Numbered from the stretch's first letter, positions 3,742 through 48,562 are shown. The stretch is 64,000 bases of DNA from Escherichia coli (GCF_045037415.1 NZ_CP173438.1), one strand, 5' to 3'. Translations and numbers: made by a program. The notes: generated from the sequence alone by a model not told the origin.

Positions 3742-4092
3742 ATGCATACCTCCGAGTTGCTGAAACACATTTATGACATCAACTTGTCATATTTACTACT
3801 TGCACAGCGTCTGATTGTTCAGGACAAAGCGTCCGCTATGTTTCGTCTCGGCATAAATGAAGAAATGGCGACAACGTTAGCGGCACTGACTCTTCCGCAA
3901 ATGGTTAAGCTGGCAGAAACCAATCAACTGGTTTGTCACTTCCGTTTTGACAGCCACCAGACGATTACTCAGTTGACGCAAGATTCCCGCGTTGACGATC
4001 TCCAGCAAATTCATACCGGCATCATGCTCTCAACACGCTTGCTGAATGATGTTAATCAGCCTGAAGAAGCGCTGCGCAAGAAAAGGGCCTGA
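3742..4092 (+). CDS. flhD: flagellar master regulator FlhD
   Basis: ORF 3733..4092; [24 protein letters not shown]... matches FlhD; start placed at MHTSEL. Confidence 0.92.
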
Positions 4093-4094
4093 TC

Positions 4095-4673
4095 ATGAGT
4101 GAAAAAAGCATTGTTCAGGAAGCGCGGGATATTCAGCTGGCAATGGAATTGATCACCCTGGGCGCTCGTTTGCAGATGCTGGAAAGCGAAACACAGTTAA
4201 GTCGCGGACGTCTGATAAAACTCTATAAAGAACTGCGCGGAAGCCCACCGCCGAAAGGCATGCTGCCATTTTCAACCGACTGGTTTATGACCTGGGAACA
4301 AAATGTTCATGCTTCGATGTTCTGTAATGCATGGCAGTTTTTACTGAAAACTGGCTTGTGTAATGGCGTCGATGCGGTGATCAAAGCCTACCGTTTATAC
4401 CTTGAACAGTGCCCGCAAGCAGAAGAAGGACCGCTGCTGGCATTAACCCGTGCCTGGACATTGGTGCGGTTTGTTGAAAGTGGATTACTGCAACTTTCCA
4501 GCTGCAACTGCTGCGGCGGCAATTTTATTACCCATGCTCACCAGCCTGTTGGCAGCTTTGCCTGCAGCTTATGTCAGCCGCCATCCCGGGCAGTAAAAAG
4601 ACGTAAACTTTCCCAGAATCCTGCCGATATTATCCCACAACTGCTGGATGAACAGAGAGTACAGGCTGTTTAA
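4095..4673 (+). CDS. flhC: flagellar master regulator FlhC
   Basis: 192-aa ORF with the zinc-binding cysteine cluster (CNCCGGNF...CSLC) typical of FlhC; immediately follows flhD. Confidence 0.93.
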
Positions 4674-9247: not shown

Positions 9248-10909
9248 ATGATTAACCGTATCCGCGTAGTCACGCTGTTGGTAATGGTGCTGGGGGTATT
9301 CGCACTGTTACAGCTTATTTCCGGCAGTCTGTTTTTTTCTTCCCTTCACCATAGCCAGAAGAGCTTTGTGGTTTCCAATCAATTACGGGAACAGCAGAGC
9401 GAGCTGACGTCAACATGGGATTTAATGCTACAAACGCGCATTAACCTGAGTCGTTCAGCGGTGCGGATGATGATGGATTCATCCAATCAGCAAAGTAATG
9501 CCAAAGTTGAATTGCTCGATAGCGCCAGGAAAACATTGGCCCAGGCCGCGACTCATTATAAAAAATTCAAAAGCATGGCACCGTTACCTGAAATGGTCGC
9601 TACCAGTCGTAATATTGATGAAAAATATAAAAACTATCACACAGCGTTAACTGAACTGATTGATTATCTTGATTATGGCAATACTGGAGCTTATTTCGCT
9701 CAGCCAACCCAGGGAATGCAAAATGCAATGGGAGAAGCGTTTGCTCAGTACGCCCTCAGCAGTGAAAAACTGTATCGCGATATCGTCACTGACAACGCAG
9801 ATGATTACCGATTTGCCCAGTGGCAACTGGCGGTTATCGCGCTGGTGGTGGTATTGATTCTGCTGGCGGCGTGGTACGGCATTCGCCGTATGTTGCTTAC
9901 ACCGCTGGCAAAAATTATTGCGCATATTCGCGAAATTGCCGGTGGTAACCTGGCGAATACCCTGACCATTGACGGGCGCAGTGAAATGGGCGACCTGGCG
10001 CAGAGCGTTTCACATATGCAACGCTCTTTGACTGACACCGTCACTCATGTGCGCGAAGGTTCAGATGCCATCTATGCCGGTACCCGTGAAATTGCGGCGG
10101 GCAACACCGATCTTTCCTCCCGTACTGAACAGCAGGCATCCGCGCTGGAAGAAACTGCCGCCAGCATGGAGCAGCTCGCCGCGACAGTGAAGCAAAACGC
10201 CGATAACGCCCGCCAGGCCTCGCAACTGGCGCAAAGTGCCTCCGACACCGCCCAGCACGGCGGCAAAGTGGTGGATGGCGTAGTGAAAACGATGCATGAG
10301 ATCGCCGATAGTTCGAAGAAAATTGCCGACATTATCAGCGTTATCGATGGTATTGCCTTCCAGACTAATATCCTCGCGCTGAATGCCGCTGTTGAAGCCG
10401 CGCGAGCGGGTGAACAAGGCCGTGGTTTTGCCGTGGTGGCGGGCGAAGTGCGTAATCTTGCCAGTCGCAGCGCCCAGGCGGCAAAAGAGATCAAAGCCCT
10501 CATTGAAGACTCCGTCTCGCGCGTTGATACCGGTTCGGTGCTGGTCGAAAGCGCAGGGGAAACAATGAACAATATCGTCAATGCTGTCACTCGCGTGACT
10601 GACATTATGGGCGAGATTGCATCAGCATCGGATGAACAGAGTCGTGGCATCGATCAAGTCGCATTGGCGGTTTCGGAAATGGATCGCGTCACGCAACAGA
10701 ACGCATCGCTGGTGCAGGAATCAGCTGCCGCCGCAGCTGCGCTGGAAGAACAGGCGAGTCGTTTAACGCAAGCGGTTTCCGCGTTCCGTCTGGCAGCCAG
10801 CCCACTCACCAATAAACCGCAAACACCATCCCGTCCTGCCAGTGAGCAACCACCGGCACAGCCACGACTGCGAATTGCTGAACAAGATCCAAACTGGGAA
10901 ACATTTTGA
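9248..10909 (+). CDS. tar: methyl-accepting chemotaxis protein II (aspartate/maltose receptor)
   Basis: ORF 9227..10909; start placed at [16 protein letters not shown]...; C-terminal NWETF pentapeptide and MCP signalling domain present; position next to cheW. Confidence 0.9.
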
Positions 10910-10954
10910 CGAGTATTTACTAAAGCGGTCATTGCCGCCTGATGGGGAGCGTTG

Positions 10955-11180
10955 ATGTTTAATCGTATTCGAATTTCGACCACGCTGTTTTTAATTTTGA
11001 TTCTCTGCGGGATCTTGCAGATTGGCAGTAACGGCATGTCTTTTGGGCATTTCGCGACGATTTGCAACGACTGAATCAGGCCGACCATCTTTCGTCGCGT
11101 GTGGCGGTATTTACCCTTGAAGAACATGAAGTAGCACGACATGAGTCGGCGCAGTTACAAATTGCGCCAGTGGTATCCTG
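10955..11180 (+). pseudogene. tap: tap (dipeptide chemoreceptor) remnant: N-terminal about 30 codons joined to the C-terminal about 45 codons, with a frame break
   Basis: ATG at 10955 gives MFNRIRISTTLFLILILCGILQIGSNGMSF then a stop at 11072 after a T4 run; the +1 frame continues WAFRDDLQRLNQADHLSSRVAVFTLEEHEVARHESAQLQIAPVVS* ending at 11180; full-length Tap is about 533 aa. Confidence 0.75.
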
Positions 11181-42534: not shown

Positions 42535-42788
42535 ACAACCAGACAATGACTTTTACCCCTGAGCAATTACGTAAACAGGCACAGGAAATGTTGCGGCAGG
42601 CGGAACAACTGGAAAAAACAGGTGTAACAAAAGATGCCATTCGTCGGGATATGGTGCCAGCGCTCAGGGAACTGATGCAGGCAAAACACCGTGCACAAAA
42701 AGCAGTGGATGAGCTGGTGGATTGTGTGGCAGAGCTGGAAACCAGAGTTGGTAAGTTTGAAAAACTGGTGCAGGAGGTACTGCGCTGA
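42531..42788 (+). CDS. hypothetical coiled-coil protein
   Basis: 85-aa ORF, overlapping-stop packing. Confidence 0.4.
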   Translation: MNNQTMTFTPEQLRKQAQEMLRQAEQLEKTGVTKDAIRRDMVPALRELMQAKHRAQKAVDELVDCVAELETRVGKFEKLVQEVLR

Positions 42789-43156
42789 TGCGTGATATGT
42801 ACGAAGTTTTAGATCGTTGGGGGGCCTGGGCTGCAGCAGATAACAGTGGTGTGGACTGGCAGCCGATAGCAGCAGGCTTCAAGGGGCTTTTACCACACGG
42901 TAAAAAGTCACGTCTCCAGTGTGATGATGACGAAGGTATCATGATAGACGGTTGTGTGGCTCGGTTGCGAAAGTATAAACCCGAAGAGTATGAGTTGATC
43001 ATTGCTCACTTTGTTATTGGTATCTCATTACGCGCTATTGCTAAAAAACGGAAATGTTCAGATGGAACAATACGGAAAGAGATGCAAACAGCAATGGGGT
43101 TTATTGATGGCTGCTTGTCATTTTTCATTTACTACAATGACTTAAGTTCTATGTAA
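42788..43156 (+). CDS. late-gene antiterminator Q-like protein (QuuD-type)
   Basis: 122-aa ORF MRDMYEVLDRWGAWAAADNSGVDWQPIAAGFKGLLP... resembling the recalled short Q/QuuD family of E. coli prophages; sits directly before the late cargo and lysis region. Confidence 0.6.
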   Translation: MRDMYEVLDRWGAWAAADNSGVDWQPIAAGFKGLLPHGKKSRLQCDDDEGIMIDGCVARLRKYKPEEYELIIAHFVIGISLRAIAKKRKCSDGTIRKEMQTAMGFIDGCLSFFIYYNDLSSM

Positions 43157-43219
43157 AATCGTTCTACTTTCCCAACTTTTATGTGTATATAATACCAGGA
43201 TAAAGTAACGGAGAATCTT

Positions 43220-44260
43220 GTGAACATTCAGGCAGTAGACATTTTTTGTGGTGCGGGGGGCTTAACTTTTGGGCTAAAAAAAGCCGGGATTGAGGTTTCT
43301 CATGGTATTGATATTGATGAATCCTGCCGTTTTGCTATTGAGAGCAATAATCCTTTAACGCAGTTCATTAATCAGTCAGTTACAGAACTGCAATCCTGCG
43401 ATGTGTCTGCTATGTTCAAGGAAGGAAATATTAGATTGCTTGCTGGATGTGCTCCTTGCCAACCGTTTTCCAAGTATCGTAATCCAAATAGCCGTAAAGA
43501 CGATACAAAGTGGCGTTTGTTATATGAGTTTCAAAGGCTTGTAAGTGATGTCATGCCAGAGCTTGTGACGATGGAGAATGTTCCTCAACTTAGAAACCAT
43601 AAGGTTTTTGAAGGGTTTGTTAGTGCATTAAAGACTCTTGGATATCATTTGTGGTACGACGTTGTAAGATGTTCTGAGTATGGCTTACCTCAAAATAGAC
43701 GTAGATTAATTCTAATTGGTTCCCAATTGGGGCCGATCAGCCTTGATCAAAAAAAAGTTAGCCGTAAAGTTACTGTTAAGGATGCTATTGGTAGGTTGCC
43801 AAAAGTAGGGGCAGGTGAGAAGCTGGAAAGCGATCCCTTGCATCGTTCGCCTAAATTGATGGATATCAATCTTAAACGAATCATGCATTCTTTACCTGGT
43901 GGTACGTGGGATGACTGGCCTGAAGAAATTAGAGCAGACTGTCATAAAAAGAATTCAGGTGCTACCTATAAAAGCGTTTATGGACGGATGGTTTGGGACG
44001 ATACTAGCCCTACGATAACTACCCAGTGTTATGGATATGGAAATGGACGATTTGGCCATCCTGAGCAAAATCGCGCCATAACTTTGCGTGAAGCTGCGAT
44101 TTTGCAATCCTTTCCAATGGATTATAAATTCCTTGACAAGGAGACGCCTTTTTCATTCCAAAAATTGGGGACAATGATTGGAAATGCTGTTCCCCCTATA
44201 ATTGGTCAGATAATAGGGGAAACATTTATCAGACATGTTGAGGGGATAAATACCCGTTAG
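43220..44260 (+). CDS. DNA (cytosine-5)-methyltransferase, Dcm family
   Basis: 346-aa ORF, GTG start; C5-MTase motifs I FCGAGG, IV PCQPFS, VI ENV, VIII QNRRR and X GNAV are all visible. Confidence 0.85.
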   Translation: MNIQAVDIFCGAGGLTFGLKKAGIEVSHGIDIDESCRFAIESNNPLTQFINQSVTELQSCDVSAMFKEGNIRLLAGCAPCQPFSKYRNPNSRKDDTKWRLLYEFQRLVSDVMPELVTMENVPQLRNHKVFEGFVSALKTLGYHLWYDVVRCSEYGLPQNRRRLILIGSQLGPISLDQKKVSRKVTVKDAIGRLPKVGAGEKLESDPLHRSPKLMDINLKRIMHSLPGGTWDDWPEEIRADCHKKNSGATYKSVYGRMVWDDTSPTITTQCYGYGNGRFGHPEQNRAITLREAAILQSFPMDYKFLDKETPFSFQKLGTMIGNAVPPIIGQIIGETFIRHVEGINTR

Positions 44261-44918
44261 AGGTAATATAATTTTCTGTTGAGTTGATTAATAAACGCAA
44301 ATATAGATCAATTCTTTCTGACCTCGATTTGACTTCTTCTAAAGGGTCTATTTGACCTTTTTTAGAAAAGCTGGTACTTCCATGTGCCAGCTCATTTCTG
44401 ATATCTTTAAGTAAATCTAAGTCAACACCATTTCTACACTCTGGTGAGTTTGCAACAGTTATTCCGTAAGCTTGTGTTATTTTGTGCAATACAGACTTGC
44501 AAACATTACCATTGAATTCTTTACGTATGTTTAATGAGGCTGAAATGATCCTTTTAGATATATCGGAACCAATTTTTTGATAAAGAGATTTTCCCGATTC
44601 ATTATCTGAAATGATACGGTGCAAGATATTTACTTGGAATTTCTCCCTGAGTGATGCGTAATTTACTTCATTATCTTGCAAATGGTCATAAATTGACTCA
44701 ATGCATCCTCTGGCAGTGTTTTCAACCTGATTGTACAGCATCATGTGCACGGATGATTTTAAAATGTTAACCCTAAGGGTATTTGATTCTATTTCATCTT
44801 TATGCGTTTGCTGATCTAACTGCTGAGTCTGAGCCTCTAAAGATGACGCAAGAGAAAGCAATTCCATAATATCTCTTGCTCTTTCTTCGTATTCATCTCT
44901 TAAATCAATCAAACTCAT
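44229..44918 (-). CDS. HEPN-domain protein (predicted RNase/nuclease), partner of the DUF262 protein
   Basis: 229-aa ORF; C-terminal Rx4H HEPN motif (DIRNELAHG); ATG 2 nt after the stop of the upstream DUF262 gene with an AGGA Shine-Dalgarno inside that gene's 3' end. Confidence 0.65.
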   Translation of the reverse strand: MSLIDLRDEYEERARDIMELLSLASSLEAQTQQLDQQTHKDEIESNTLRVNILKSSVHMMLYNQVENTARGCIESIYDHLQDNEVNYASLREKFQVNILHRIISDNESGKSLYQKIGSDISKRIISASLNIRKEFNGNVCKSVLHKITQAYGITVANSPECRNGVDLDLLKDIRNELAHGSTSFSKKGQIDPLEEVKSRSERIDLYLRLLINSTENYITSNGYLSPQHV

Positions 44919-44920
44919 AG

Positions 44921-46078
44921 TTACATTCCTAATAATTTATCTTTGACATAAAATATTCTGTTTTTGAGTTGGCTGGTGTTGTTGGCACTATCAGCAGTAA
45001 CTATGGTTTCAAATTCCTCCCCAAACAGCCAGTCTCCTACAGGAATAACCGGAGCCTGTAGATGTGGATTGGCTTTTAAGGCAAGAGCAGTTCCCACTGC
45101 TATGGCTTCGTATCTAGCACGGGGGGTGGTTTTGCTTGTTGGTGTCTTTTTAAACCCCATAGGGAAATGAGCATCTACAAAAGCAAGCATGCTTTCAAAA
45201 TCATGTTTAAATTTGTCTACATCTTGTTGTGTGACCCTTTCGGCCTGAACATTAAGATAATTGTCAATAAAAGGAGCGACATAACCCTTATAATTTTCTA
45301 AATCATTTAAGTATGCAAAAAATCTCAAAACTAACTCACGATGATCGCCATTCGAACGTTTCCGGTCTGATAATGGAGCTAGACTAGCGAAAAGTGGATT
45401 TGTTGAGCAAGGAGTCACAACATCCCTATAGAAAATTGAAGTGGCCGCATCTGAACCATGTCTAACCTCCATCGCTTCCAGTCTCTTAACACCTGAATTT
45501 ATTCTTTCGAATAAATCTCTTCTATGTTGCTCCTCAACATCACCTTTCAATTCAATAAATCTTAGTGATGCCCTTAAAAATCGCCTCTGGCGGCTAGCCA
45601 AAAGATCTGAAAATTTGAAGCCCTCTAAACTTTTGAGTTCTTTTAAGTCTTTCAATTCAAACTGATTGTTCCAAAAGTAGTAAATTGAGCGAATCCTTTG
45701 TGAACCGTCAATAATTTCTACACGACCATCCAACTCAGGATCTTCATTAAATACGTCGGAGATGTAGAGGTACGGGATTGGAAAATCTAATAATATACTT
45801 TCGATGAATCGAGAGGCTGTTTTGATATCCCATTTGTAATCGCGTTGATAATCAGGAATAAAAAGTTCGTTTTTGTCAGTTTCAAGATTATTGCCATACT
45901 TTTGTACAATTAATTCAACGGTCCATTCACGTACGTTGTATCCAATATTTCTCTGAGCAAGCCTAATCTCGTTGTCGGCAGAAGTGACCAAGGCTGCAAT
46001 TTCAGCTTTTTTTCTATTTTTCGCGTTTTCATCTTGAATCTGAGCAAGCTCTTCTTTGAGTTCTTTGAGTGTGGTCAT
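44921..46078 (-). CDS. DUF262 (ParB/Srx-like, GmrS-N-type) domain protein without an HNH/DUF1524 domain
   Basis: 385-aa ORF; DUF262 hallmarks FIPDYQRDYKW and IIDGSQR near the N-terminus; long helical C-terminal region with no nuclease motif. Confidence 0.75.
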   Translation of the reverse strand: MTTLKELKEELAQIQDENAKNRKKAEIAALVTSADNEIRLAQRNIGYNVREWTVELIVQKYGNNLETDKNELFIPDYQRDYKWDIKTASRFIESILLDFPIPYLYISDVFNEDPELDGRVEIIDGSQRIRSIYYFWNNQFELKDLKELKSLEGFKFSDLLASRQRRFLRASLRFIELKGDVEEQHRRDLFERINSGVKRLEAMEVRHGSDAATSIFYRDVVTPCSTNPLFASLAPLSDRKRSNGDHRELVLRFFAYLNDLENYKGYVAPFIDNYLNVQAERVTQQDVDKFKHDFESMLAFVDAHFPMGFKKTPTSKTTPRARYEAIAVGTALALKANPHLQAPVIPVGDWLFGEEFETIVTADSANNTSQLKNRIFYVKDKLLGM

Positions 46079-46186
46079 ATCACTGTTCCTTTAATTGGAG
46101 TTGGAAATAGATTGTAAGAAAACTATAACGCGTACGCAAAAAATATTATATCGTGTTAAGAGTGGTTACTACGCCACACAGCTTAA

Positions 46187-46212
46187 ACCCGCCGCCAGGC
46201 GGTTTTTTGTGT
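46187..46212 (+). terminator. intrinsic terminator on the + strand (candidate late tR'-type terminator)
   Basis: cccgccgccaggcgg hairpin followed by a T6 run, between the DUF262 gene start and the next + strand ORF. Confidence 0.45.
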
Positions 46213-46331
46213 CCGAAAAACGGCGCAGTACGTTAAACGTGCTGGTGGTTGCGAATACCGGTCTTTCAGCTTGCTGGCTTTTCAGACAAGAGTTATTGGT
46301 ATGTCACGTTAACCAGAAAAGGGAAAAAGAC

Positions 46332-46529
46332 ATGCTAAAACAGCAGGATATGACCGAAACTGCCAGAGTGGTGTTTAATGAATTAAGCGTCACCGAACCG
46401 GCGACCGTCGGGGAAATTGCGCAGAATACTTACCTTTCACGCGAACGCTGCCAGCTAATACTGACCCAGCTTGTTATGGCGGGTCTGGCAGATTATCAGT
46501 TCGGTTGTTACAGACGCCTTCCGCAGTGA
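46332..46529 (+). CDS. hypothetical small protein, possible winged helix
   Basis: ORF 46095..46529; start placed at MLKQQDMTETARVVFNELSV... Confidence 0.35.
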   Translation: MLKQQDMTETARVVFNELSVTEPATVGEIAQNTYLSRERCQLILTQLVMAGLADYQFGCYRRLPQ

Positions 46530-46679
46530 AGGCTTTTTTATTTGTGGTAATGGGCGGCTGGTGGGTGTTAGCGGCACCTGCCAGCCATCTGCTCATGCGT
46601 TGGGGTCACAAGCAAACCTCAGGCCCATCTGCTTTGCGCAAAAGCGGTATGAGCCTATCAGAGAAGTGCTTATTGATCT

Positions 46680-47420
46680 ATGGCTAATACTGTAAAAATA
46701 TCCAGTTGTGAGTTAATCAACGCCGACTGCCTGGAATTTATCCGGTCGTTACCCGAAAATTCTGTTGACCTGATAGTCACGGACCCGCCGTACTTTAAAG
46801 TGAAGCCTGAGGGCTGGGATAACCAGTGGAAGGGCGACGATGATTACCTGAAGTGGCTGGACCAGTGTCTGGCGCAGTTCTGGCGGGTGCTGAAACCTGC
46901 CGGAAGTCTTTACCTGTTCTGTGGTCATCGCCTGGCATCTGATATCGAAATCATGATGCGTGAACGCTTCAGTGTGCTGAACCATATTATCTGGGCGAAG
47001 CCGTCCGGACGCTGGAACGGATGCAACAAGGAAAGCCTGCGGGCGTATTTCCCCGCCACAGAGCGCATTCTGTTCGCGGAACATTATCAGGGGCCGTATC
47101 GTCCGAAAGATGCCGGGTATACGGCGAAGGGCAGTACGGCTGTGTCGGACAGGGCTTACATATTGCCAAAAAACTGCTTCCGTATATCCCTAATAACGCG
47201 GGGATCCTGCTGGTACCATGCTGTCGTGGTGGTTCGGCATTCACCCAGGGCACGGAGGGGACATTCAGCGAGTCCACGGGGGCCAGTCAGGATTCGGCTC
47301 GCTGGGGAGTGGGTAAGCCGTTATATCAGGATCTGCTTTTCCGCACGAAGGCAGCATTGCAGAAAAACCCGAAAAACGTTTTGCTGGCGATATGCTGGAT
47401 GCAGGGGGAATTCGATATGA
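46680..47420 (+). pseudogene. N6-adenine/N4-cytosine-type DNA methyltransferase, N-terminal fragment only (frame lost after about 140 codons)
   Basis: Motif IV TDPPYF and ...LNHIIWAKP... are present, but no motif I follows; the frame degenerates into low-complexity sequence while the overlapping frame becomes NanS-like. Confidence 0.45.
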
Positions 47421-48562
47421 CGAATGCCAGTTACGCCCAGCAGCCAGCAGCATTTCTTGCAATGGTACAGCAGTTCCGTGCTGACCTTGCCGGGCTGGCG
47501 GCGCAGTGTCACGGTGGAAGTCCGGCATCAGTCCCCTGGATTTGTGGCGACACGACATACGTGTGGAAACAAGAACACGGTACGCAATATGAAGTGGTAT
47601 ATGGTGCATATAAAGGTAAAGAATCCCAGCAGATTTATTTTGTTCCCTTTATGACCGATGGTAGCGGAGTTAATACACCGACAAACAACCCGTCAGAAGA
47701 TCCTGATATTGCCGGGTCTGGTTATTACGGTTCGGCATCCCGAACGAACAAAAACTGGGTATCATCAAATCGCCCGACGCATTTCAGCTCATGGGCGCGT
47801 CGTGGCATTATTCCCGATCGTATGGCAACTGCTATTCTGAACGTAGCCGGTCGCACCTTAGCCTTCATTAGTGGTAAGGCACCGGAAATCAAACCCTCGC
47901 CCGGCGGCGACACTCCATCGGGGCCGTCTGATGGTGACACATCCGTTCGTACAGTCTCCCTGCTGCCGACAGCCGGAGAGGCTGCTGCGCAGGGCTGGAC
48001 CATCACCGGCGGCAGTGTTGCGCTGGAAGATGGTGTGTTTAAGGTTACCAAGCAGAGCAATAAAACTTGGTCCCTGATGCATCCGGTGGATGACGCAGTC
48101 TCCCTGCTGACACGGGGTGGCAGACTGAGCTGTAAGTTTCGACTGTCAGGCGCACTGACCAACAACCAGTTCGGTCTGGGAATTTATCTGTGTACCGATG
48201 TAGCGTTACCTGACGTCGTGGCGATGACCGGGACTGGTAACCCGTTCCTGATGTCGTTCTTCACCCAGACCACAGACGGCAAACTGAATCTGATGCATCA
48301 CAGGAAAGCAGGAAACACAAAGTTGGGCGAGTTCGGGAATTACAGTAACGACTGGCAGACGCTGGAGCTGGTGTTCACCGCCGGCAGTGCCACGGTTACT
48401 CCGAAACTGAATGGAGTGGCTGGCCCGGCATTCCAGGTCATAAAAGACAGTCTGACACTGGGGCTGAATGCGCTGACGCTGACGGATATTACCAAAAATG
48501 CAGCGTATGGCGTTGAGATAGAAAGTCTGGTGCTGGAGATAAATGCACCAGCATCATCATAA
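47021..48562 (+). CDS. prophage NanS-like sialate O-acetylesterase (NanS-p type), apparently 5'-truncated
   Basis: Frame matches recalled YjhS/NanS from ...QYGCVGQGLHIAKKLLPYIPNNAGILLVPCCRGGSAFTQGTEGTFSE... onward, plus a C-terminal extension; the N-terminal GQSN-containing region was not seen. Confidence 0.55.
   Translation: MQQGKPAGVFPRHRAHSVRGTLSGAVSSERCRVYGEGQYGCVGQGLHIAKKLLPYIPNNAGILLVPCCRGGSAFTQGTEGTFSESTGASQDSARWGVGKPLYQDLLFRTKAALQKNPKNVLLAICWMQGEFDMTNASYAQQPAAFLAMVQQFRADLAGLAAQCHGGSPASVPWICGDTTYVWKQEHGTQYEVVYGAYKGKESQQIYFVPFMTDGSGVNTPTNNPSEDPDIAGSGYYGSASRTNKNWVSSNRPTHFSSWARRGIIPDRMATAILNVAGRTLAFISGKAPEIKPSPGGDTPSGPSDGDTSVRTVSLLPTAGEAAAQGWTITGGSVALEDGVFKVTKQSNKTWSLMHPVDDAVSLLTRGGRLSCKFRLSGALTNNQFGLGIYLCTDVALPDVVAMTGTGNPFLMSFFTQTTDGKLNLMHHRKAGNTKLGEFGNYSNDWQTLELVFTAGSATVTPKLNGVAGPAFQVIKDSLTLGLNALTLTDITKNAAYGVEIESLVLEINAPASS

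What the first reader, a model, noticed from the sequence alone, without database searches (positions are those of the whole stretch)
44229..46078. Translationally coupled DUF262 (ParB/GmrS-like) plus HEPN gene pair in the Q-to-lysis cargo slot: candidate uncharacterised defence module
Two minus-strand genes are packed with 2 nt between the stop of the first and the ATG of the second, whose Shine-Dalgarno lies inside the first gene. The upstream 385-aa product carries the DUF262 hallmarks (FIPDYQRDYKW and IIDGSQR) but has no DUF1524/HNH nuclease domain, as GmrSD, SspE or BrxU-type enzymes would. The downstream 229-aa product has an Rx4H HEPN motif (RNELAHG) near its C-terminus, so the nuclease function appears to be supplied in trans by a HEPN protein. 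The pair sits between Q and the lysis genes, the classic lambdoid moron position where stx or nmpC sit in other prophages, and the island looks AT-rich relative to the flanking phage genes. I cannot match this architecture to a named, experimentally characterised defence system from memory; DUF262-HEPN neighbourhoods have, as far as I recall, only been noted computationally.
Basis: partly seen in the sequence, partly recalled or inferred. Interest (0 to 1): 0.85.

Follow-up and report, generated by a model that had tools for sequence, protein, structure and literature searches.

The report
Prophage methyltransferase–DUF262–HEPN defence cassette
The two genes are real and correctly identified, but they belong to a widespread three-gene cassette that also includes a DNA cytosine methyltransferase; it looks like a restriction-modification-style anti-phage system whose layout was predicted in 2013, whose two-gene relative (PD-T4-2) is experimentally validated, and which has never itself been tested.

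Summary
Observation confirmed. Two minus-strand genes lie 2 nt apart: a 385-aa DUF262 (GmrSD_N) protein with no DUF1524, and a 229-aa MAE_28990-type HEPN protein with an invariant RNxLAH motif. They sit in an AT-rich cargo slot after the Q antiterminator.

The interpretation needs two corrections. First, DUF262+HEPN is not only a computational observation. PD-T4-2 (Vassallo 2022) is a validated anti-T4 pair with the same two Pfam families. This locus is only a distant relative: it hits the PD-T4-2_A profile at 93 bits and does not hit PD-T4-2_B.

A convergent C5 cytosine methyltransferase (43220-44260) overlaps the HEPN gene's 3' end. It has co-diverged with the pair across phyla. It is present in all 106 E. 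coli genomes that carry the pair, and in 44 of 65 judgeable species-representative loci. The 21 loci without it are all cyanobacterial. In several lineages it has been replaced by a non-orthologous C5 MTase. Anantharaman 2013 already listed this triad.

Best reading (inferred): an R-M-like system with a 5mC writer, a DUF262 ParB-like NTPase as DNA or modification sensor (nearest folds BrxU and SspE), and a HEPN effector. It is an uncharacterised variant of a known kind, of moderate interest.

The parts
43220..44260 (+). C5 DNA cytosine methyltransferase (346 aa), the third gene of the cassette. It is convergent with the DUF262-HEPN operon, and its last 32 nt overlap the 3' end of the HEPN gene.
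   Evidence: TIGR00675 dcm at 6e-35 and PADLOC MTase_II at 1.6e-87. Motifs FCGAGG, P79-C80-Q81, ENV, QNRRR and GNAVPP are visible in the translation. It is orthologous over its full length (53-58% identity) in Pseudoalteromonas, Photobacterium and Pseudomonas cassettes, and is present in all 106 E. coli genomes that carry the pair.
44229..44918 (-). MAE_28990-type HEPN protein (229 aa), the predicted effector (probably an RNase). Catalytic motif R174-N-E-L-A-H179.
44921..46078 (-). DUF262 (ParB-like NTPase) protein of 385 aa with a helical C-terminal domain and no DUF1524/HNH domain; the predicted DNA or modification sensor.
44927..44930 (-). Shine-Dalgarno AGGA for the HEPN gene, lying inside the DUF262 coding sequence. 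The gap between stop and start is 2 nt.
   Evidence: Read directly from the sequence. Junctions are equally tight in the other loci, with gaps of 1-6 nt.
46109..46186 (.). Non-coding block upstream of the DUF262 gene that is conserved more strongly than the coding sequence across four prophage backbones. On the minus strand it contains a candidate promoter: -35 TTGCGT (46139-46134), a 17-nt spacer, and -10 TACAAT (46116-46111).
   Evidence: Alignment A4 shows invariant runs over both hexamers. The consensus scan did not call it because the -35 matches only 3 of 6 positions. Its function is inferred, not shown.
46189..46208 (+). G+C-rich hairpin followed by a T-run (terminator-like). It marks the right-hand end of the block shared between prophages.
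   Evidence: Called by the scan. The stem shows compensatory changes between E. coli and Klebsiella copies. The shared block ends at 46185-46207. The same block flanks different cargo in other E. coli prophages.
43184..43194 (+). Invariant TGTATATAATA element (contains TATAAT) upstream of the methyltransferase gene, followed by GGAG (43210-43213) and the GTG start codon.
   Evidence: Alignment A3 of four prophage backbones and the sequence. A promoter function is inferred only.
42788..43156 (+). Antiterminator Q family gene. It is context, but it forms the left end of the block that travels with the cassette.
   Evidence: PGAP annotation. The similarity shared with L002, L007 and L009 begins at 42786-42788.

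Best explanation
The locus is a three-gene, restriction-modification-like anti-phage cassette carried as prophage cargo between the Q antiterminator gene and a conserved terminator. The C5 methyltransferase writes 5-methylcytosine on resident DNA, both host and prophage. The DUF262 protein is a ParB-like NTPase of the BrxU/SspE/DndI structural class with a helical C-terminal domain. It acts as the DNA or modification sensor, using nucleotide binding and hydrolysis (DGSQR) to tell marked DNA from unmarked or otherwise foreign DNA. The translationally coupled HEPN protein replaces the DUF1524/HNH nuclease of GmrSD-type enzymes as the effector supplied in trans. It is most probably an Rx4H RNase whose activation stops phage growth, possibly by abortive infection. 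Shown here: the gene content, the domain and fold assignments, the conservation of catalytic motifs, and the evolutionary linkage of the three genes. Inferred: that it defends against phages, that 5mC is the self mark, the direction of sensing, and that the HEPN substrate is RNA.
For: (1) Domains and folds. Catalytic motifs are invariant. (2) The three genes have co-diverged. Identity to the window in distant gamma-proteobacteria is DUF262 57-61%, MTase 53-58% and HEPN 35-41%, all over the full length. (3) The same triad appears in unrelated settings: two E. coli prophages, three Klebsiella prophage backbones, Tn7-like cargo in Pseudoalteromonas, chromosomal in Photobacterium, next to McrBC in Pseudomonas, Moraxella phages and P2-like phage P2_4B2. 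(4) In a survey of 80 species-representative genomes, HEPN is present in 74 of 75 judgeable loci and a C5 MTase in 44 of 65. All judgeable non-cyanobacterial loci have the MTase. (5) The MTase has been replaced by non-orthologous C5 MTases (L012 together with Vsr, L013, L015, L031, L043, L084) and occurs in three gene orders, but the linked MTase is a C5 enzyme in all 44 MTase-positive loci. A crude motif check found an amino-MTase-like ORF in only one of the 21 loci that lack a C5 MTase (L086). This argues that 5mC chemistry itself matters. (6) The AT-rich island covers all three genes. (7) There are precedents. PD-T4-2, a DUF262+HEPN pair, protects against T4 (PMC9519451). SspE and DndI are DUF262 readers of a self modification written by linked genes (PMC11662687). 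Anantharaman 2013 predicted that ParB + MAE_28990 HEPN + methylase operons are R-M-like.
Against: There is no experimental data for this cassette. Twenty-one cyanobacterial loci carry the pair with no MTase within 3 kb. P2_4B2 has a truncated or split MTase next to an intact pair. PD-T4-2 was cloned without a methylase, was tolerated in MG1655 and was active there. So the pair is not obligatorily lethal to unmethylated self DNA, as a classical restriction enzyme would be. Replacement of the MTase is not accompanied by obvious divergence of the DUF262 protein, so sequence-specific matching of reader and writer is not evident. Whether the MTase is expressed in the lysogen is unknown. No canonical sigma-70 promoter was called for either transcription unit. 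HEPN proteins are usually RNases, but that was not tested here.
Confidence: 0.5

Rival explanations
1. There are two independent modules. One is a PD-T4-2-like two-gene defence in which DUF262 senses infection or hypermodified (hmC-type) phage DNA and HEPN is the effector. The other is an orphan C5 methyltransferase that serves the mobile element in another way, such as anti-restriction or epigenetic control. On this view the methyltransferase is not needed for the pair to function.
For: The pair occurs without any nearby MTase in 21 cyanobacterial loci. PD-T4-2 works as a 1.8-kb two-gene clone. P2_4B2 has a truncated MTase. The nearest folds, BrxU and GmrSD, are modification-dependent (Type IV) enzymes. 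PD-T4-2 was selected on T4, and T4-selected systems generally also protected against T2 and T6.
Against: The 3' ends abut or overlap in 40 loci across phyla. All three proteins have co-diverged. Non-orthologous replacement always brings in another C5 MTase, and the linkage survives changes in gene order. Every judgeable non-cyanobacterial locus keeps the MTase. A sensor that attacked 5mC-type DNA would be self-destructive next to a C5 MTase.
Confidence: 0.22
2. The cassette is mainly a selfish addiction module that works by post-segregational killing. The HEPN/DUF262 pair is a toxin held in check by methylation, so it stabilises the prophage, transposon or island rather than defending against phages.
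For: The cassette always travels on mobile or variable DNA: prophage slots, Tn7-like cargo, the P2 hotspot. The convergent, overlapping layout is typical of Type II R-M systems, which do behave as addiction modules (established knowledge). HEPN toxins are common in toxin-antitoxin systems (PMC3710099).
Against: The same facts that argue against strict lethality without the MTase apply here. Addiction and defence are also not mutually exclusive in R-M systems.
Confidence: 0.1
3. The DUF262 protein, with HEPN, is a DndB-like regulator of DNA modification. It would be a ParB-like DNA binder that controls methyltransferase expression or activity, so the system is epigenetic or regulatory rather than an immune effector.
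For: DndB is a ParB/DUF262-like domain fused to HEPN and regulates the dnd modification genes (PMC3632139). HHpred on PD-T4-2A gave DndB at 96.7%. A conserved non-coding block lies upstream of the operon.
Against: The catalytic Rx4H of HEPN and DGSQR of DUF262 are strictly invariant, as expected for enzymes. The relative PD-T4-2 gives strong phage protection. The cargo-slot and defence-island contexts fit immunity better.
Confidence: 0.05

Closest known systems
PD-T4-2 (Vassallo et al. 2022, E. coli ECOR65)
   Same: A two-gene operon of a DUF262 protein lacking DUF1524, followed by a small HEPN protein of the RiboL-PSP/MAE_28990 type. It is found in E. coli. The window's DUF262 protein hits the PD-T4-2_A profile at 4.3e-27 over most of its length.
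   Different: The relationship is distant. The A score is only 93 bits and is lower than the score against Menshen NsnA. The 229-aa HEPN does not hit the PD-T4-2_B profile at E<=0.1, and PD-T4-2B is only about 165 aa. PD-T4-2 was cloned and is active without a methyltransferase, whereas this family is tightly linked to a C5 MTase outside cyanobacteria. The mechanism of PD-T4-2 is itself unknown. I could not make a direct pairwise comparison because the PD-T4-2 sequences were not retrievable.
ParB + MAE_28990-HEPN + DNA methylase operons (Anantharaman et al. 2013, computational)
   Same: This is the same thing. [quoted passage not shown] PGAP and Pfam place the 229-aa protein in this family.
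   Different: It is only a comparative-genomics entry, with no experiment, no system name and no mechanism. The survey here adds the numbers, the 3'-overlap geometry, the MTase replacement, the MTase-less cyanobacterial lineage and the prophage cargo slot.
SspABCD-SspE and DndBCDE-DndI (phosphorothioate-sensing DUF262 systems)
   Different: The modification there is phosphorothioate, not 5mC. The effector there is a fused DUF1524/HNH nickase, whereas here it is a separate HEPN protein. The correspondence of the sensing residues rests on the motif pattern only.
GmrSD / BrxU / TgvAB / GrwAB (Type IV, modification-dependent restriction)
   Different: Those enzymes carry a DUF1524 His-Me nuclease and attack modified DNA. 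This protein has no DUF1524 and is linked to a methyltransferase, which fits modification-dependent attack poorly.
Menshen (NsnABC)
   Same: The best PADLOC hit of the DUF262 protein is NsnA, at 5.6e-46 over profile positions 13-301 of 385. This means it shares the DUF262 domain plus the helical 'ParBDB' C-terminal domain.
   Different: There is no NsnB ABC-ATPase and no NsnC effector in the locus. The partners here are a HEPN protein and a C5 MTase instead.
PD-lambda-5 (ParB/HEPN fusion + methyltransferase; 'compacted RM+Abi')
   Same: The concept is the same: a ParB-like domain, a HEPN-like region and a methyltransferase carried in a prophage, validated as a broad defence.
   Different: It has a classical ParBc domain rather than DUF262 (DUF262 probability 36.6%), only a very weak HEPN signal, and a D12-class N6-adenine MTase. 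The window proteins give no PADLOC cross-hit to it. It is an analogue, not a homologue.

Membership tests
PD-T4-2 (PADLOC/DefenseFinder definition: A + B) | Component A is a DUF262 protein matching the PD-T4-2_A profile. | tested here: inconclusive
   The hit is 4.3e-27 and 93 bits over profile positions 52-313 of 363. However, NsnA scores higher at 155 bits. The same roughly 105-118-bit A hits occur for every DUF262+C-domain protein I tested. This shows superfamily-level similarity, not clear membership.
PD-T4-2 (PADLOC/DefenseFinder definition: A + B) | Component B is a small HEPN protein matching the PD-T4-2_B profile. | tested here: not met
   There is no PD-T4-2_B hit at E<=0.1. The only hit is RTasHEPN at 0.0078. 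B is 229 aa here against about 165 aa in PD-T4-2. The Pfam families are the same.
PD-T4-2 (PADLOC/DefenseFinder definition: A + B) | Protection against T-even phages by the two genes alone. | not testable with these tools
   This needs cloning and plaque assays.
MAE_28990 HEPN family (Pfam PF18737) | A profile match plus a conserved Rx4-6H motif. | tested here: met
MAE_28990 HEPN family (Pfam PF18737) | An operon with a ParB/DUF262 gene and a DNA methylase gene (Anantharaman 2013). | tested here: met
   In the survey, 74 of 75 loci have the DUF262-HEPN pair and 44 of 65 have a C5 MTase.
GmrSD/BrxU Type IV restriction enzymes | An N-terminal DUF262 NTPase domain with QR and DGQQR motifs. | tested here: met
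GmrSD/BrxU Type IV restriction enzymes | A C-terminal DUF1524 His-Me (HNH) nuclease domain. | tested here: not met
   There is no DUF1524 hit in Pfam. The C-terminal half of the model is purely helical.
Menshen (NsnABC) | An NsnA-like DUF262 + ParBDB protein. | tested here: met
   PADLOC NsnA at 5.6e-46.
Menshen (NsnABC) | An adjacent NsnB ABC-ATPase and an NsnC effector. | tested here: not met
   The neighbouring genes are a HEPN gene, a C5 MTase gene and phage genes, with no ATPase. The same holds in all related loci.
Type II restriction-modification system | A DNA methyltransferase with intact catalytic motifs next to the restriction component. | tested here: met
   A C5 MTase with motifs I, IV (P-C80-Q), VI, VIII and X. 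It is convergent with overlapping 3' ends.
Type II restriction-modification system | A sequence-specific endonuclease that is blocked by the cognate methylation. | not testable with these tools
   No recognisable REase fold was found. The window protein does not hit the PADLOC REase_II profile PDLC03418, although relatives do weakly (1e-5 to 4e-10). Biochemistry is needed.
SspE/DndI-type modification-sensing defence | A DUF262 reader genetically linked to a DNA-modification writer. | tested here: met
   The linkage to a C5 MTase is conserved and has co-diverged. The writer chemistry differs: 5mC here, phosphorothioate there.
SspE/DndI-type modification-sensing defence | NTPase activity modulated by the modification, with a fused DUF1524 nickase. 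| tested here: not met
   There is no DUF1524 domain. Whether the NTPase responds to 5mC cannot be tested in silico.

The most novel reading that the evidence does not exclude
The triad is a distinct class of restriction-modification-like immunity. A ParB-like DUF262 NTPase reads the 5-methylcytosine status of DNA, much as SspE and DndI read phosphorothioate. It then gates a separate HEPN RNase, so that the 'restriction' arm acts on RNA or causes abortive infection rather than cutting DNA. Because resident prophage DNA carries the mark, a prophage-encoded copy would spare its own phage. The MTase-less cyanobacterial pairs and PD-T4-2 would then depend on methylation supplied in trans by conserved host methyltransferases.
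Probability: 0.3. Interest if true: 0.75.

Novelty: new variant of a known kind. Interest (0 to 1): 0.45.

Why it matters
The cassette is common and clinically placed. It is in 106 of 5,426 complete E. coli genomes, including strains labelled O25b:H4-ST131. It is also in several Klebsiella pneumoniae prophage backbones, Moraxella phages and a P2-like phage, and relatives occur from Proteobacteria to Cyanobacteria. Despite this, PADLOC profiles do not assign it to any named system and no experiment exists.

It offers a compact three-gene model for two open questions. One is how DUF262 sensors that lack their usual HNH nuclease signal to an effector supplied in trans, which is also unknown for PD-T4-2, Menshen and Dazbog. 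The other is whether 5mC can serve as a self mark read by a ParB-like NTPase rather than by steric blocking of an endonuclease.

It also shows how a defence cassette can spread. It rides inside a block that runs from the antiterminator Q gene to a conserved downstream terminator, and that block is shared between different lambdoid prophages.

Tried and rejected
(1) Menshen membership. NsnA is the best PADLOC hit, but there are no NsnB or NsnC genes, so I rejected it.

(2) GmrSD/Type IV membership. There is no DUF1524 domain, so I rejected it.

(3) PD-lambda-5 as a homologue. It has a ParBc domain and a D12 adenine MTase, so it is only an analogue.

(4) DARNA as a mechanism for PD-T4-2. DARNA is PD-T7-3, so it is not relevant.

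(5) The V. cholerae DUF262 systems TgvAB and GrwAB. They carry DUF1524, so the architecture is different.

(6) The ST131 methylome paper. EC958 lacks this MTase, so it gives no data.

(7) The Rousset 2022 P2/P4 hotspot paper. A term search of its main text returned no mention of ParB, GmrSD, methyltransferase or methylase, and only generic mentions of HEPN.

(8) Retrieving the PD-T4-2 sequences (RCO39066.1; QOYX01000002:338334-339873) for direct alignment. Candidate stand-ins from phages (L094, L095, L098, L099) are not true PD-T4-2 by PADLOC.

(9) A test for co-variation between MTase replacement and the DUF262 C-terminal domain. There was no signal: L013 and L015 keep about 57% C-domain identity.

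(10) A crude motif search for other MTase classes near the MTase-negative pairs. It found none, apart from one DPPF-motif ORF in L086.

(11) The consensus promoter scan. It called no sigma-70 promoter for either transcription unit, so the candidates come only from conservation.

(12) Rfam on 42700-46700 gave no match.

(13) NCBIfam gave no hit for either the DUF262 or the HEPN protein.

(14) A sequence search of the PDB found no close solved relative of either protein.
Full report
**Observation.** The upstream TAA stop is followed by 'ct' and then the ATG of the second gene. An AGGA Shine-Dalgarno sequence sits 8 nt before that ATG, inside the first gene. The quoted motifs FIPDYQRDYKW, IIDGSQR and RNELAHG are all present. 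Pfam assigns the 385-aa protein to GmrSD_N/DUF262 (3.6e-25, residues 69-206) with no DUF1524. It assigns the 229-aa protein to HEPN_MAE_28990 (4.6e-16, nearly full length) and more weakly to HEPN_RiboL-PSP. GC content drops to 0.34-0.42 between about 42750 and 46250, against 0.50-0.56 on either side. The antiterminator Q gene lies at 42788-43156, and the holin and lysozyme genes lie downstream.

A third gene, 43220..44260 on the plus strand, encodes a 346-aa C5 cytosine methyltransferase. It hits TIGR00675 at 6e-35 and PADLOC MTase_II at 1.6e-87, and all the canonical motifs, including P79-C80-Q81, are visible. It converges on the operon and overlaps the HEPN gene by 32 nt, and it lies inside the same AT-rich island. 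All 106 complete E. coli genomes (of 5,426) that carry the pair also carry this gene. That includes 34 genomes with an allele about 87% identical that sits in a different, dusA-integrated prophage, again directly after a Q gene.

**The triad recurs in unrelated settings.** The layout DUF262 → HEPN ← C5-MTase appears in three Klebsiella prophage backbones and as Tn7-like cargo in Pseudoalteromonas. It is chromosomal next to fis/dusB in Photobacterium and lies beside McrBC in Pseudomonas. It also occurs in nine Moraxella phages and, with a truncated or split MTase, in the P2-like phage P2_4B2. The three proteins are orthologous over their full length and have diverged together. In the distant gamma-proteobacteria, identity to the window is 57-61% for DUF262, 53-58% for the MTase and 35-41% for HEPN.

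**Systematic survey.** A scan of one genome per species with the DUF262 alignment confirmed 168 relatives. I analysed the best 80 loci. They come from Gamma-, Beta- and Deltaproteobacteria, Cyanobacteria, Lentisphaerae, Bacteroidota and Vampirovibrio. I searched their six-frame ORFs with HMMs built from my own alignments:
- A HEPN gene follows the DUF262 gene directly in 74 of 75 loci with enough sequence to judge. The single exception is L089, where it has been lost.
- A C5 MTase lies within 3 kb in 44 of 65 judgeable loci.
- All 21 MTase-negative loci are cyanobacterial, are embedded among housekeeping genes, and share no alternative conserved neighbour.
- Every judgeable non-cyanobacterial locus has the MTase.
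- The MTase is convergent and downstream in 40 loci, and upstream on the same strand in 4.

In L013, L015, L031, L043 and L084 the MTase scores only 127-159 bits against my orthologue HMM, and in L012 only 60 bits. These are non-orthologous C5 enzymes. L012 was found separately, through a HEPN partner only 22% identical to the window's. There the MTase is divergent and is accompanied by a Vsr mismatch-repair gene, the usual companion of a cytosine methylase acting on its own genome. A crude motif check found a nearby amino-methyltransferase-like ORF in only one MTase-negative locus, L086. Linkage that survives changes in gene order and replacement by non-orthologues, yet always involves a C5 enzyme, is strong comparative evidence of functional coupling to 5mC.

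Within cyanobacteria, MTase-less pairs have a more diverged DUF262 C-terminal domain (about 33% identity to the window, against about 40% in MTase-linked loci). N-domain identity is the same in both groups at about 50%. This is suggestive, but it may simply reflect phylogeny.

**Prophage context.** Sequence shared with the other cassette-bearing prophages starts at the Q start codon (42786-42788) and ends at 46185-46207. That end lies just past a G+C-rich hairpin with a T-run at 46189-46208, whose stem shows compensatory changes between copies. The roughly 80 bp between the DUF262 start codon and the hairpin is conserved more strongly than the genes are. On the minus strand it contains a candidate promoter, TTGCGT-17 nt-TACAAT, that falls within invariant blocks. 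An invariant TGTATATAATA element and a GGAG precede the MTase gene. The hairpin block occurs in about 37 further E. coli genomes without the cassette. In strain A34, three unrelated minus-strand genes lie between a Q-family gene and the block. In NS-NP030, an ORF6N gene does. So this really is a variable cargo slot, bounded by Q and a conserved terminator. The cassette appears to move within that Q-to-terminator block. Whether the late promoter lies before or after the cassette remains unresolved.

**What is already known.** Table 1 of Anantharaman et al. [quoted passage not shown] PGAP annotates the three genes with the corresponding names. Both proteins fall in PHROG families of unknown function.

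Vassallo et al. 2022 selected PD-T4-2 experimentally. Their tables list it as 'DUF262, HEPN', with A = DUF262 at 99.7% and B = HEPN_RiboL-PSP at 97.8% or MAE_28990 at 96.9%. It protects MG1655 against T4, and deleting it sensitises its native strain ECOR65. The clone contains no methylase. Its mechanism was still described as uncharacterised in 2023-2025, and the 2026 DARNA work concerns PD-T7-3.

The window's DUF262 protein hits PADLOC PD-T4-2_A at 4.3e-27 but hits Menshen NsnA better, at 5.6e-46. The HEPN protein does not hit PD-T4-2_B. Every other DUF262-plus-partner pair I tested from phages behaves the same way. So this family is related to PD-T4-2 at the architecture and superfamily level, but it is not a member as the profiles define it. 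I found no paper in the library that tests the three-gene cassette.

**Mechanism.** Shown: the gene content, folds, invariant catalytic motifs and three-way evolutionary linkage. Inferred: the MTase marks resident DNA with 5mC. The DUF262 NTPase, with its helical C-terminal domain (the 'ParBDB' DNA-binding domain of NsnA and SspE), senses DNA or its modification state. The HEPN protein stands in for the missing DUF1524 nuclease as effector, probably as an RNase.

The best-documented precedents are the phosphorothioate systems, in which a linked writer marks self DNA and a DUF262 protein reads the mark. SspE needs the mark to become active and is harmless without it. DndI is always active and is released from self DNA by the mark. 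DndI's sensing patch, P23/Y25/Q26, has the same P-x-Y-Q pattern as the invariant P75-D-Y77-Q78 here. That correspondence rests on the motif pattern only.

The MTase-less cyanobacterial pairs, the truncated MTase in P2_4B2 and the MTase-free PD-T4-2 clone argue against a strictly classical R-M system in which unmethylated self DNA is lethal. They fit an SspE-like logic, methylation supplied in trans, or true independence of the pair. I therefore give the R-M-like writer/reader/effector model 0.5, two independent modules 0.22, an addiction module 0.1 and a DndB-like regulator 0.05.

**Verdict.** The finding is real and the domain calls are right. However, the architecture is neither unnamed nor unvalidated at the two-gene level, and the three-gene form was predicted in 2013. 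What remains new is that this specific, very widespread cassette is experimentally untouched, is not assigned to a system by current defence profiles, and has a clear, testable 5mC-linked hypothesis. I rate it a new variant of a known kind, with interest 0.45.

Noticed in passing
window 46109-46208: An ~80-bp non-coding block plus a hairpin/T-run terminator is conserved more strongly than the adjacent genes across E. coli and Klebsiella prophages, with compensatory changes in the stem. It may be the Q-dependent late promoter/terminator region, the promoter or operator of the DUF262 operon, or both. Rfam has no match.
   Followed up: partly
L096 1409-2959 (E. coli A34) and L097 2396-2962 (E. 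coli NS-NP030): The same slot, between a Q-family gene and the conserved hairpin block, holds other cargo: three unannotated minus-strand genes (154, 204 and 56 aa) in A34 and an ORF6N-domain gene in NS-NP030. The slot looks like a hotspot worth mining for further defence candidates.
   Followed up: no
window 46680-48562: PGAP marks two abutting pseudogene fragments here: the 5' part of a DNA methyltransferase gene (DPPY motif; 46680-47138) and the 3' part of a DUF6645 gene (47126-48562). An intact 353-aa methyltransferase occupies the equivalent position in E. coli NS-NP030. This looks like a deletion that fused the two genes.
   Followed up: partly
L094 1994-3041 (Peduovirus P2_4B2): In this P2-like phage the triad lies next to the replication gene A, but the C5 methyltransferase is only 234 aa (its N-terminal two-thirds), followed by a 37-aa ORF. 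It is either truncated, frameshifted or mis-sequenced, while the DUF262 and partner genes are intact.
   Followed up: partly
L048-L092 (21 cyanobacterial loci, e.g. L062, L073, L082, L091): A cyanobacterial lineage carries the DUF262-HEPN pair without any nearby methyltransferase, among housekeeping genes (aconitase-like, ClpB, ABC1 kinase). Its DUF262 C-terminal domain is more diverged (~33% identity to the window, against ~40% in MTase-linked cyanobacterial loci), while N-domain identity is the same.
   Followed up: partly
L012 938-2640: In a metagenomic locus whose HEPN is only 22% identical to the window's, the linked C5 methyltransferase is non-orthologous, divergently oriented and followed by a Vsr very-short-patch repair gene. 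This suggests the methylase acts on its own host's genome.
   Followed up: no
L007/L008/L010 (Klebsiella prophages) 4007-4638 and 10583-11158: In Klebsiella prophages the cassette is flanked by a HicAB toxin-antitoxin pair. Further along there is either a BsuBI/PstI-type restriction enzyme gene or a reverse-transcriptase gene, so these form small clusters of defence genes within the prophage.
   Followed up: no
L099 2309-4580 (Vibrio phage PE004); PADLOC profile PDLC03418: A REBASE-derived 'Type II REase' profile weakly matches the DUF262 domain of several relatives (1e-5 to 4e-10), though not the window protein. The depositors of a Vibrio phage labelled a DUF262 protein 'RM_Type_II REase' next to a 355-aa 'RiboL-PSP-HEPN' protein. 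Automated tools may therefore already call some of these loci Type II R-M systems.
   Followed up: no
L003 8472-11302: In Pseudoalteromonas the triad sits immediately beside TnsE_C and TniQ/TnsD genes, so it appears to be cargo of a Tn7-like transposon.
   Followed up: no
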